This document shows, in pieces, positions 51,270 through 53,786 of a DNA stretch of 64,000 nucleotides (position 1 is its first letter; each line of letters opens with the position of its first letter). Made by a program: the position numbers and the translations under genes. The notes under the pieces were generated by a model that did not search any database, was not told the origin of the DNA, and saw only the letters and a list, made by a program, of their open reading frames with translations. The stretch lies in assembly GCF_056746865.1 (NCBI RefSeq), contig NZ_CM163382.1, one strand, 5' to 3'.

Positions 51270-53786
51270 TGCTATTAATTATATCTGCAATAGAATAAAA
51301 AATAGTGACGGATTTAGTTACTGTTATGAAAAACTATTGATATCTATTTCAAAGAATCTATTCAATCCAACTAGCAGCAACCCCATTACTCAGCGTGAAT
51401 ATCAACAATTGCTAAAATTCAGCGATTTTTTATCTAATTCCGAAAAAGAAGAAGATCGAAACCTAGCGTTAAAAATAATATCTGCAATATATGATCTTTA
51501 TAAAGAAGATCATAGTTGCCAATTACTGACAAAATCCATCCTTAGCAAACTTGGACTTTTTGCCGCTGAGGAAGTATTTACTGATAGTGATATAAAACTA
51601 CCATTATCCTATGAAATTTCTAGCAAATACAGAAAAATAAAAAATCGTATAAATGGTTCTGAGTACATATTCACTAATCGACAATGTGATGTGTACAGTG
51701 AGATCATGCAGAATGATTATTTTAGTTTTTCTGGCCCGACATCCCTCGGCAAATCATTCTTGATTAAACATGCTGCCGTTGATCTTATTGAAAATAATAA
51801 ACTAATTATTTTCATCCTTCCAACAAAAGCTTTATTAGAAGAATATCTAATTGACTTAAAATCTATACTCAATGAAAAAGGCGTGAAAGATATAAATGTA
51901 AGTAAATCCGTATCACAAGTTGACAAAGAAAGTAAAAATATATTGGTGTTTACACAAGAAAGATATAACTCATTTTTATATGAAAAGTCTTATGATAATA
52001 TGGATGTTGACTTTTTATTTATTGATGAAGCTCATAAAGTACTTGACAAAAAGAATAATAGAGCTATAACCCTATATAAAGTAATAAATAACTCCATAGA
52101 AAAATATGGTAAATTAAAAGTCATTTTTTCCTGCCCAGTAATTTCCAATCCTGATGTGTTTTTCAAAACATTTAATATACCGAATAGCAAGAAAACAAGA
52201 AGTTTATGTATTAAAGAATCTCCGGTAAATCAAGATTTGTACTTTGCAAATTATCAAGATAATAATTTTGTCTATTTTGATTCTATTTTAAATAAAAAAA
52301 TTAATTTCAATGTAAATAATGCTTATCAAAATGACTTTGAAATAATCAGAGGATTAGCACAACAATCCAAGTCAAACCTTATCTACGTATCAAGTAAAAC
52401 AGAATGTATAAGGAAATGTAACGAATTTCTAGAGTATTTAATTCGGGAAAAAAAGTATCGATAACAACAGACGATGAACTTATTTCCGAGTCAAAAATAA
52501 TCATGGAGTATATTCATAAAGATTTTAACTTAGCTCATGTATTAAAATATGGTATAGCATTTCACCATGGTTCACTACCTCTATTTATAAGAAAAAGAAT
52601 AGAGGACTTATATTCCAAAAAGAAAATAAATTTTATCTTTTGCACATCAACTTTACTTGAAGGGGTAAACTTACCCACAAAGAATGTTTTTATTTATCCA
52701 TTCCCTAAAAAGACTGTTAACGATGAAAAAAAATGCCGATTAGATTTTTGGAATCTGGCGGGGCGAGCTGGAAGATACAGAAGTGAATTGACTGGTAACA
52801 TAGTATGCCTGAATACCGCTGATAATAACTGGAGCAATGCAGATGCTAAAATTAGCCTAGGTAATAATGTTATTATAGAGGATGAAATAAACTCAACATT
52901 ACTACGCCATCAAAAAATATTAAATTATTTTGATGGTAAAGTTAAATCTCCAACTAATGACATTATTCAACTCAGCTCACTTATTCTATCAGAAATATTA
53001 ACTTATTTAGATAAAGGTTATATAGGGCGAATTTTAAATACCTTTAATGAAAAGATTCGGTTTATGCTTATTGATTCAGGAAAAAAACATCTTGATCGTA
53101 ATAGAATTATTGAAATAGATAAAGTGACCTTTTCAGAAAATCATATATTCTCAACATCCATACACGCTAAAGCCCAACTCAATGCTAAAAATAAAGAAAA
53201 ATTATTGCGTTCTTATAGCAGAGAGGATGTTTTCAATTATTTGGAAACAATAAATGAAATATATGGCCTGCGTAACACCCCTGATTCATTAAACCAACTG
53301 TGCATTGTGACTTATTCGTGGCTCATGGGTAATACGCTGAATTTATTAATATCAAACGCTATTAAATATAGCAATTCAGTTAGAGATCCTATTAGCTATA
53401 GATGGGTTAAATTTGATAAAACCAATCCTGATCATATAAACGCAAAAATAATGGAGGCAATACAATGCATTGAATCTGAAGTTACTTTTAAACTTGAAAC
53501 ATGTATTGCTCATTTTTATCAGCTATGTCAATCAATTCACGGCGATGAAAATGCAGGCATTAATCTTTCACCTTATTTAGAATATGGAACATTAGATACT
53601 AACATCATAGAACTTCAAGAGTTTGGTTTCTCTCGTTTAGCCGCAATTGAAATTATAGCAAAGCACAAAGAGTGTGTTACATTCAAAACAAATGAGACAT
53701 CATTGCAAATAAACACTCAGAAATTAAGAGCTAAGATTGAAAAGCACAGTGTAATTGATAGAGAACTATCATGGTTGAATTTATAA
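51262..53786 (+). CDS. Ski2/Hel308-like SF2 (DExH) helicase; reading frame interrupted at an A7 run (ORFs 51262..52464 and 52503..53786 probably one gene of about 840 aa)
   Basis: Walker A GPTSLGKS, Walker B FIDEAHKV in the first ORF; motifs IV-VI (LIYVSSKTE, GIAFHHGSLP, CTSTLLEGVNLP, AGRAGR) in the second; second frame open from 52422, joining at the A7 run 52448-52454. Confidence 0.7.

What the first reader, a model, noticed from the sequence alone, without database searches (positions are those of the whole stretch)
52440..52505. Helicase gene split at an A AAA AAG heptamer (A7 run): -1 frame change fuses two ORFs
The first helicase ORF (frame 1) reads gaa aaa aag tat cga taa and stops at 52464. 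The downstream helicase ORF is open in frame 0 from 52422, so a -1 shift at the A7 run (52448-52454) gives ...EYLIREKK-VSITTDDELISESK... and one protein of about 840 aa with all SF2 motifs in order. The in-frame heptamer A AAA AAG is the same slippery sequence used for programmed -1 frameshifting in E. coli dnaX. I see no strong SD-like or stem-loop stimulator nearby, so a 1-nt homopolymer deletion (mutation or sequencing error) is at least as likely as recoding.
Basis: seen in the sequence. Interest (0 to 1): 0.6.

Follow-up and report, generated by a model that had tools for sequence, protein, structure and literature searches.

The report
Frameshift-broken Hachiman defence helicase gene
The split helicase is an anti-phage gene (hamB) broken by a real one-base deletion in a run of eight A's, the gene upstream is broken the same way, and sister E. 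coli strains still carry both genes whole, so this is an ordinary dead gene and not programmed frameshifting.

Summary
An A7 run at 52448-52454 forms an in-frame A_AAA_AAG, and a -1 shift there joins ORFs 51262-52464 and 52422-53786 into an 841-aa SF2 helicase. The helicase is HamB of a three-gene nuclease-protease Hachiman system (hamM, protease-hamA, hamB) on an island inserted at ssrA in E. coli.

It is not a sequencing error: 126 of 131 complete E. coli genomes with the locus have exactly A7. It is not programmed recoding either.
- Four sister genomes have A8 and one intact 841-aa ORF.
- The same four have T8 where the window has T7 (51011-51017) in protease-hamA, so the window carries two linked one-base deletions in adjacent genes.
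- All more distant homologues are single ORFs.
- The closest outgroup (Morganella) has no A-run at the site.
- No stimulatory structure, suitably spaced SD or Rfam element is present.
- Genomes with the broken haplotype show further decay (IS insertions, extra frameshifts).

Best reading: a defence operon inactivated by mutation and inherited clonally. Any full-length product would come only from unprogrammed leak, probably well under 1% per gene. Interest is low.

The parts
48825..49811 (+). hamM: MBL-fold pro-nuclease, 328 aa, intact in the window
   Evidence: ORF. PADLOC LmuA/RTasMBL/Avs1a MBL profiles match at E=3e-61 to 2e-35, and NCBIfam Avs1a at 3e-42. The protein is the same (WP_000238828.1) in both haplotypes.
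49804..51027 (+). protease-hamA, 5' part: 407-aa ORF, native sequence to residue 404, then L-S-D-stop
   Evidence: The intact allele is 488 aa. The family profile matches PDB 9wh1_A (HamA C-terminal domain protein) at E=4.7e-17 over its full length. The N-terminal domain has a trypsin/3C-like fold, and H36/D90/S164 are invariant.
51011..51017 (+). T7 run (T8 in intact alleles): site of the second one-base deletion; reads as in-phase T_TTT_TTG at 51012-51018
   Evidence: Alignment with strain A10. Counts are 123 T7, 4 T8 and 4 others among 131 genomes. Tract lengths in 29 loci are.
51018..51269 (+). protease-hamA, 3' remainder (83 codons) in the -1 frame; listed as a 71-aa TTG ORF at 51054-51269
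   Evidence: It is colinear with residues 406-488 of the intact protein.
51262..52464 (+). hamB, 5' part: 400-aa ORF with the N-terminal domain and RecA1 (motif I GPTSLGKS, motif II DEAH); native to K398, then Y-R-stop
   Evidence: Pfam DEAD/ResIII match residues 139-276 of the fused protein.
52448..52454 (+). A7 run (A8 in intact alleles): site of the reported frameshift; heptamer A_AAA_AAG at 52449-52455
   Evidence: Counts are 126 A7, 4 A8 and 1 noisy assembly among 131 genomes.
52455..53786 (+). hamB, 3' part (443 codons) in the -1 frame: RecA2 and C-terminal domains; annotated in RefSeq as a separate 427-aa CDS starting at ATG 52503
   Evidence: Pfam Helicase_C matches residues 422-506 of the fused protein. 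The fused protein matches PADLOC HamB1 at E=3.3e-185 over profile positions 4-842 of 845, and PDB 9wh1_B at E=5.8e-95.
53941..54420 (-). Convergent HTH regulator gene next to the operon (context; its link to the system was not tested)
   Evidence: NCBIfam RstR-family repressor at 3.5e-10 and a weak PADLOC capH hit. It is present beside the operon in all loci.
39961..40323 (+). ssrA (tmRNA): attachment site of the island that carries the operon; the integrase gene follows at 40490-41737
   Evidence: ARAGORN and annotation of sister genomes.

Best explanation
The helicase is HamB of a nuclease-protease Hachiman system. The operon order is hamM (MBL pro-nuclease), protease-hamA, hamB, and it sits on an island integrated at ssrA in one E. 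coli lineage. In the intact system, as the cited papers show for homologues, HamB senses DNA and hydrolyses ATP. [quoted passage not shown] In the window, hamB has lost one A from an A8 run, which separates RecA1 from RecA2. Protease-hamA has lost one T from a T8 run, which removes the last 84 residues of its HamA domain. Both are ordinary replication-slippage deletions in an AT-rich operon. They became fixed together in one haplotype, which was then inherited clonally and is now far commoner than the intact one. The operon is therefore a pseudogenised defence system. Shown here: the two deletions, their linkage, the intact ancestral state, and the identity of the system. Inferred: loss of function, and that any full-length protein arises only from unprogrammed -1 slippage at a low level, needed at two genes at once.
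For: Identity of the system:
- Fused HamB matches PADLOC HamB1 at E=3.3e-185 over its full length.
- HamB matches PDB 9wh1_B at 5.8e-95, and the middle-protein profile matches 9wh1_A (HamA C-terminal domain protein) at 4.7e-17.
- The N-domain of the middle protein has a trypsin/3C-like fold, and H36/D90/S164 are invariant. Its N-domain also matches the protease-type LmuA profile at 2.5e-10.
- HamM matches MBL defence profiles.
- The architecture and mechanism are described in PMC12799240 and bioRxiv 10.1101/2025.09.03.673762. An E. coli-derived HamMAB was shown to need all three domains (PMC13069673).

A mutation, not an error:
- 126 of 131 complete genomes have exact A7 and 4 have A8.
- The same 4 have T8 where 123 have T7.
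- The intact ORFs of 488 and 841 aa are annotated there.

Single origin:
- T7/A7 is always found with 49073C and T8/A8 with 49073T across 29 loci.
- The sampled carriers differ by at most 2 SNPs in 7.5 kb of core flank.
- Across the large collection, the intact 488-aa protein is indexed in 413 blocks and the truncated 407-aa form in 13,219. Every contig read kept the pairing.

Ancestral state intact:
- The 120 best homologues listed are single ORFs, mostly ~830-850 aa (a few shorter or partial).
- The junction lies in a non-conserved linker.
- The Morganella operon (HamB 64% identical) is intact and has no A-run or T-run at either site.

Continuing decay in the broken haplotype:
- IS1 in hamB (one search hit H1; L027), an IS in hamM (L029), extra breaks (L028), and T6 in strain PKF4.
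Against: A_AAA_AAG is among the shiftiest heptamers in E. coli (PMC5009743), and both broken sites happen to lie in the X_XXY_YYZ phase. Some full-length protein cannot therefore be excluded. Nonprogrammed suppression of one-base deletions was measured at 1-10% in aggregate in two test proteins (PMC10861913). Apart from the two deletions the operon is otherwise undamaged in most carriers, but divergence is too small (0-2 SNPs) for that to mean anything. No expression or phage-challenge data exist for this allele.
Confidence: 0.88

Rival explanations
1. Programmed -1 ribosomal frameshifting of the dnaX type: the A_AAA_AAG heptamer is a recoding signal, and the cell deliberately makes both a 400-aa product and a full-length 841-aa HamB.
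For: The heptamer is in phase and identical to the dnaX shift site (PMC5009743). The upstream gene also has an in-phase T_TTT_TTG.
Against: The 85 nt downstream fold no better than shuffles (z=0.54; z=0.06 at the T7 site). Rfam finds no element. The only G-rich stretch (CGGGA, 52444-52448) abuts the heptamer instead of lying about 10 nt upstream as in dnaX (the spacing rule is from my own knowledge). Sister strains encode the same protein from an uninterrupted A8 ORF. The homologues listed (45-64% identical for the closer ones, about 33% for the rest) are single ORFs, and the closest outgroup has AAT AAT AAC AAT at the site. Without stimulators, heptamers gave only 2-10 times a 0.055% background in E. 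coli (PMC4066793).
Confidence: 0.02
2. Sequencing or assembly error: the true genome has A8 and the gene is intact.
For: Homopolymers are the classic site of such errors. A few noisy assemblies do show random tract lengths (SCU-482 has 82 differences in 6 kb; L020).
Against: 126 independent complete assemblies from many laboratories, hosts and platforms share A7 exactly. A7 is perfectly linked to T7 and to substitution 49073C. The truncated products are indexed in more than 13,000 blocks of the assembly collection.
Confidence: 0.01
3. Phase variation: the A and T tracts are contingency switches that turn a toxic defence system on and off reversibly through slipped-strand mispairing.
For: Both ON (8/8) and OFF (7/7) states exist in one lineage. 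Strain PKF4 has T6, so the tract does slip. The intact system is reported to be toxic on expression (PMC12799240).
Against: Only the 8/8 and 7/7 states occur in clean assemblies, and each is tied to its own SNP allele. No 8/7 or 7/8 state and no revertant on the 49073C background was seen. At least six re-sequenced genomes, named as strain M12 and laboratory 'capsule spontaneous mutant' isolates, are all identical to the window over both 90-nt tract queries, so 7/7. The number of runs of 8 is no higher than in codon shuffles. The tracts are absent from the Morganella homologue. Runs of 7-8 in a mismatch-repair-proficient E. coli are short for a contingency locus (my own knowledge).
Confidence: 0.04
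4. A natural split helicase: the 400-aa and 427-aa fragments are both made and reassemble into a working HamB.
For: RefSeq annotates them as two ordinary CDS. The break lies in a non-conserved linker between RecA1 and RecA2. An ATG lies 39 nt after the stop.
Against: No homologue is split at this point. The split arose by deletion from an intact allele (for the T8/T7 site; for the A8/A7 site). Sixteen linker residues would be lost, and only a weak GAG lies upstream of ATG 52503. The partner protease-HamA is truncated as well, and removing the HamA domain abolished toxicity (the readout of activation) in the homologous system (PMC12799240).
Confidence: 0.03

Closest known systems
Nuclease-protease Hachiman (HamMAB, also called Hachiman-MBL or trypsin-HamAB-MBL), described for Pseudomonas fluorescens, Klebsiella pneumoniae and an E. 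coli-derived system (PMC12799240; bioRxiv 10.1101/2025.09.03.673762; PMC13069673)
   Same: It has the same three-gene order: MBL pro-nuclease, trypsin-like protease fused to a HamA domain, HamB helicase. The two larger proteins match the solved trypsin-HamA/HamB complex chains 9wh1_A and 9wh1_B over their full lengths. The protease triad is conserved.
   Different: In the window, two of the three genes are interrupted by one-base deletions. Sequence identity to the studied systems is modest. No functional data exist for this allele.
E. coli dnaX programmed -1 frameshift (A_AAA_AAG)
   Same: The slippery heptamer is identical and in the correct phase.
   Different: There is no upstream SD at the stimulatory distance and no downstream stem-loop. 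The site and the two-ORF layout are not conserved. An uninterrupted allele exists in sister strains.
Homopolymer frameshift pseudogenes in bacterial accessory genes
   Same: A one-base contraction of an A/T run in an AT-rich, horizontally acquired operon, inherited clonally and followed by IS insertions and further breaks.
   Different: Nothing material. The only unusual detail is two linked hits in adjacent genes of one toxic system.
'Savior' indels with compensatory low-level frameshifting (herpesvirus thymidine kinase G7 run; reviewed in PMC5009743)
   Same: An indel in a homopolymer sits at a site that ribosomes can slip on, so a trace of full-length product is possible.
   Different: There is no evidence here that the trace product exists or is selected, and two genes would have to be rescued simultaneously.

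Membership tests
Programmed -1 ribosomal frameshift site (dnaX type) | Slippery heptamer X_XXY_YYZ in the zero frame at the ORF overlap | tested here: met
   A_AAA_AAG lies at 52449-52455 in phase. The -1 frame is open from 52422.
Programmed -1 ribosomal frameshift site (dnaX type) | Stimulatory elements: a downstream stem-loop or pseudoknot and/or an upstream SD-like sequence at about 10 nt | tested here: not met
   The downstream 85 nt fold at -8.1 kcal/mol, z=0.54 against shuffles. Rfam finds no match. The only G-rich element abuts the heptamer.
Programmed -1 ribosomal frameshift site (dnaX type) | Conservation of the shift site and the two-frame architecture among homologues | tested here: not met
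   A8 single-ORF alleles exist in sister strains. The homologues listed are single ORFs. The junction residues are not conserved. Morganella has no A-run at the site.
Programmed -1 ribosomal frameshift site (dnaX type) | A measurable, substantial fraction of ribosomes shift, and both products are used | not testable with these tools
   This needs a reporter assay or western blot. Published values for heptamers without stimulators are 2-10 times a 0.055% background (PMC4066793).
Hachiman HamB helicase | Full-length similarity to HamB profiles with SF2 RecA1 and RecA2 motifs in order | tested here: met
   For the fused or intact protein: PADLOC HamB1 at E=3.3e-185, profile positions 4-842 of 845; Pfam DEAD, ResIII and Helicase_C; PDB 9wh1_B at 5.8e-95.
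Nuclease-protease Hachiman (HamMAB) | A protease-HamA fusion gene immediately upstream of hamB | tested here: met
   The profile of the 488-aa family matches 9wh1_A (HamA C-terminal domain protein, 528 aa) at E=4.7e-17 over positions 5-485. The AlphaFold N-domain matches trypsin/3C-like proteases. H36, D90 and S164 are invariant. Pfam hits alone are weak (Trypsin_2 and HamA).
Nuclease-protease Hachiman (HamMAB) | An MBL-fold pro-nuclease gene immediately upstream of the protease fusion | tested here: met
   The 328-aa MBL protein matches PADLOC LmuA/RTasMBL/Avs1a at E=3e-61 to 2e-35. The same gene order is found in Morganella.
Nuclease-protease Hachiman (HamMAB) | All three genes intact and conferring phage defence | tested here: not met
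   In the window, hamA and hamB are each interrupted. Defence itself cannot be tested with these tools. Homologous systems need all three activities.
Phase-variable contingency locus | Frequent, reversible tract-length changes seen as mixed states among close relatives | tested here: not met
   Only the 8/8 and 7/7 states occur in clean assemblies, each linked to a SNP allele. M12 and the 'capsule spontaneous mutant' laboratory isolates are all 7/7. Tracts are not enriched over codon shuffles.

The most novel reading that the evidence does not exclude
The operon is dimmed rather than dead. Both deletions left in-phase slippery heptamers (A_AAA_AAG in hamB, T_TTT_TTG in protease-hamA). Unprogrammed -1 slippage could therefore yield a trace of both full-length proteins, keeping a low, non-toxic dose of an abortive-infection system. 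That would help explain why this haplotype outnumbers the intact one about 30 to 1. It would be a bacterial counterpart of the herpesvirus thymidine-kinase 'savior indel'.
Probability: 0.04. Interest if true: 0.55.

Novelty: new member of a known kind. Interest (0 to 1): 0.14.

Why it matters
The biological weight is small: this is one more defence system lost by homopolymer slippage in a successful E. coli lineage. Two practical points follow. First, RefSeq lists the fragments as ordinary proteins (a 400-aa 'DEAD/DEAH box helicase', a 427-aa 'helicase-related protein' and a 407-aa 'hypothetical protein') with no pseudogene flag, and they recur on thousands of contigs. Defence-system censuses that count hamB or MBL hits will therefore score a dead system as present. 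Second, the natural pair of near-isogenic haplotypes (T8/A8 and T7/A7, a few SNPs apart) is a ready-made comparison for testing the cost and benefit of a HamMAB system in its native host.

Tried and rejected
- Downstream RNA structure at both sites folds no better than shuffles.
- An Rfam scan of 50800-52800 at E up to 1 gave only a chance snoRNA hit.
- For the single middle protein, Pfam, NCBIfam, PADLOC and phmmer against PDB found nothing. It was identified only after a family alignment was built and a structure was predicted. Foldseek's top hits covered only the protease domain, and the HamA domain was assigned by the profile hit to 9wh1_A. PADLOC on the isolated C-terminal half gave nothing.
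- The Morganella middle gene looked truncated in the gene call (378 aa), but the ORF list shows an intact 486-aa frame. The idea of a second independent inactivation there was dropped.
- I searched for intermediate haplotypes (T8/A7 or T7/A8) to order the two deletions. The only candidate, L020, is a draft with many other frame breaks and cannot be trusted.
- Enrichment of homopolymer tracts as a sign of a designed switch was rejected.
- A first attempt to read loci in Python failed because several loci share one file.

Full report
**1. The observation**

The window reads ...ttcggg aaaaaaa gtatcgataa... around the site. The A7 run is at 52448-52454. ORF 51262-52464 reads gaa aaa aag tat cga taa. 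The -1 frame is open from 52422, and the next listed ORF starts at ATG 52503 and ends at 53786. The heptamer A_AAA_AAG (52449-52455) is in the X_XXY_YYZ phase. A -1 shift gives ...REKK|VSITTDDEL..., 841 aa in total. The description is accurate.

**2. What the gene is**

The window is E. coli chromosome. The 2.6-kb helicase region is 99% or more identical in 131 of 5,426 complete genomes, always on the chromosome, and a 132nd genome has a 95-99% match.

The region lies in a low-GC block (28-36% GC, against about 50% around it). This block is part of an island that starts just after ssrA (tmRNA at 39961-40323). The island carries an integrase, an AlpA-family regulator and a DUF927 protein.

Three co-directional, overlapping genes form the operon:
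- **hamM.** A 328-aa MBL-fold protein at 48825-49811. It matches PADLOC LmuA, RTasMBL and Avs1a MBL profiles at E=3e-61 to 2e-35.
- **protease-hamA.** A 'hypothetical' middle gene.
- **hamB.** The fused helicase matches PADLOC HamB1 over its full length at E=3.3e-185. It has DEAD/ResIII and Helicase_C domains in order.

The middle protein had no hit as a single sequence. Evidence from its family identified it:
- A profile of 19 homologues matches PDB 9wh1 chain A ('HamA C-terminal domain-containing protein', 528 aa) at E=4.7e-17 over nearly its whole length. HamB matches chain B of the same entry at 5.8e-95.
- An AlphaFold model (pLDDT 78) has an N-terminal trypsin/3C-like protease fold.
- H36, D90 and S164 (in a G-x-S-G motif) are invariant.
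- The N-domain matches the protease-type LmuA profile at 2.5e-10.

This is the nuclease-protease Hachiman system, called HamMAB or Hachiman-MBL. In published homologues HamB senses DNA and hydrolyses ATP. The protease fused to a catalytically dead HamA then cleaves the HamM pro-nuclease, which degrades DNA. [quoted passage not shown] An E. coli-derived HamMAB restricted 52 of 70 phages and needed all three domains (PMC13069673).

**3. The decisive comparison**

I searched a 90-nt query centred on the A-run against the complete genomes. Of 131 carriers, 126 are identical (A7). The A8 version of the query is matched exactly by four: A10, 2021CK-01784, CH4796 and LSC52. The fifth exception, SCU-482, is a noisy assembly with 82 differences in 6 kb, mostly homopolymer indels.

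In A10, 2021CK-01784 and LSC52 hamB is one 841-aa CDS. There the middle gene is 488 aa, not 407. Alignment shows why: the window has T7 at 51011-51017 where those genomes have T8. The window's middle gene reads ...att ttt ttg agc gat taa and stops at 51027. Its last 83 codons continue in the -1 frame to 51269.

The same four genomes, and only they, have T8. The window haplotype therefore carries two one-base homopolymer deletions in adjacent genes of one operon.

**4. One origin, inherited clonally**

Ten loci compared over 31.6 kb differ at only 31 columns. The 7.5 kb of core genes upstream of ssrA differ by at most 2 SNPs. The sampled carriers therefore share one chromosomal background.

Across 29 loci, T7/A7 always goes with C at 49073 and T8/A8 with T. 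The only mixed call (L020, T8/A7) comes from a draft with several other frame breaks.

In the large assembly collection the intact 488-aa protein is indexed in 413 blocks and the truncated 407-aa form in 13,219. Every contig read with the intact middle gene had an 841-aa hamB, apart from that noisy draft. Every contig read with the truncated one had the 400 + 427 split or worse.

The broken haplotype shows further damage:
- IS1 in hamB (one search hit H1; L027)
- an IS in hamM (L029)
- extra breaks (L028)
- a further contraction to T6 in strain PKF4

CH4796, on the intact haplotype, has its own separate break in hamB at an A5 run. This is either real or an assembly error.

**5. Tests for programmed frameshifting**

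- **Stimulators.** The 85 nt downstream of the A-run fold at -8.1 kcal/mol, z=0.54 against shuffles. The T-run site gives z=0.06. Rfam finds nothing. The only G-rich stretch (CGGGA) touches the heptamer. In dnaX it lies about 10 nt upstream (the spacing rule is from my own knowledge).
- **Conservation.** All 120 best homologues listed are single ORFs, nearly all of about 830-850 aa. The junction lies in a variable linker between RecA1 and RecA2, and the KK is not conserved. The closest outgroup is a Morganella morganii operon with the same three genes (HamB 64% identical). It is intact and reads AAT AAT AAC AAT at the A-run site and TTA TTG TTT GGT at the T-run site.
- **Expected efficiency.** In E. 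coli, heptamers without stimulators gave only 2-10 times a 0.055% background (PMC4066793). A_AAA_AAG is among the shiftiest (PMC5009743). Aggregate nonprogrammed suppression of one-base deletions reached 1-10% in two test proteins (PMC10861913).
- **Transcriptional slippage.** Efficient slippage by E. coli RNA polymerase needs longer runs, about 9 or more (my own knowledge, not tested here).

A defining feature of recoding, conservation of the site, was tested and failed.

**6. Phase variation**

The intact operon has four runs of 8. Codon shuffles give a mean of 2.6, and 26% of shuffles reach 4 or more, so the tracts simply reflect AT-richness. No mixed 8/7 state and no revertant was seen in clean assemblies. 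At least six genomes named as strain M12 and laboratory 'capsule spontaneous mutant' isolates are all 7/7. The tracts do slip occasionally (PKF4, T6), but nothing indicates a high-frequency switch.

**7. Most likely history and consequence (inference)**

Replication slippage removed one base from two of the four 8-nt runs. On the branch leading to the broken haplotype there is one substitution and two frameshifts in about 9 kb. That excess of disrupting changes fits selection against, or at least no selection for, a system reported to be toxic.

The order of the two hits is unknown. If hamB broke first, an unregulated protease-HamA could have favoured the second hit. If hamA broke first, hamB was free to decay.

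HamB is cut between RecA1 and RecA2, and protease-HamA loses the last 84 residues of the domain that couples it to HamB. Deleting that domain abolished the toxicity that reports activation in the homologue. I therefore expect no defence from this allele. Any full-length product would require -1 slippage in two genes at once.

**8. Verdict**

The feature is real, and its explanation is mundane. It is a frameshift-inactivated member of a recently described defence family, not a recoding signal and not a sequencing error. The residual novel possibility is functional low-level leak, which I put at about 4%.

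Noticed in passing
window 51011-51017 (T7) within 49804-51269: The gene upstream of the helicase (protease-hamA) is also split by a one-base homopolymer deletion (T8 to T7). It is perfectly linked to the A7 deletion.
   Followed up: yes
window 39961-40323 and 40490-41737: tmRNA gene ssrA followed by an integrase gene. The roughly 31-kb island that carries the defence operon is inserted at ssrA and extends beyond the window to ypjA in sister genomes.
   Followed up: partly
window 51262-52464, 52503-53786, 49804-51027 (RefSeq WP_001323186.1, WP_001323185.1, WP_000087769.1): RefSeq annotates the three gene fragments as ordinary CDS with no pseudogene flag. 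Some cluster members are even named 'histidine kinase'.
   Followed up: partly
L011 (strain PKF4) at the position of window 51011; L005/L009 (CH4796) at window 52048 and 52292: Further tract changes occur in single genomes. PKF4 has T6 instead of T7. CH4796, on the intact haplotype, has lost an A from the A5 run at 52047-52051, giving its own hamB break. Whether these are real or assembly errors was not resolved.
   Followed up: partly
L027, L029, L028; NZ_CP043406.1 (H1): In some genomes the broken haplotype carries IS1 copies inside hamB, an IS inside hamM, IS66 in place of the DUF927 gene, and additional frame breaks.
   Followed up: no
window 53941-54420 (-): A convergent HTH gene sits next to the operon, with RstR-family repressor similarity and weak CapH similarity. 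It may regulate the system. Its annotated length varies among genomes (138, 158 or 159 aa).
   Followed up: no
window 57917-59170 (+): A low-GC (about 44%) gene annotated as DUF3883 / 'NO VEIN domain' protein lies among sugar-PTS and hexulose-phosphate genes. Further along the island, outside the window, sister genomes annotate a 'CBS domain-containing anti-phage protein'.
   Followed up: no
window 46083-48152 (+): The DUF927 gene has 63% GC and sits immediately next to the 28-36% GC defence operon. The sharp compositional boundary suggests the operon is a separately acquired cargo module.
   Followed up: no
window 48932-48939 and 52726-52733: Two further A8 runs (one in hamM, one in the 3' part of hamB) are still at their full length in the window.
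   Followed up: partly
window ~10200-15900, with tRNA-Glu at 13829-13904 (-): A stretch with no long ORFs holds a tRNA-Glu gene, which looks like a ribosomal RNA operon. This was not examined.
   Followed up: no
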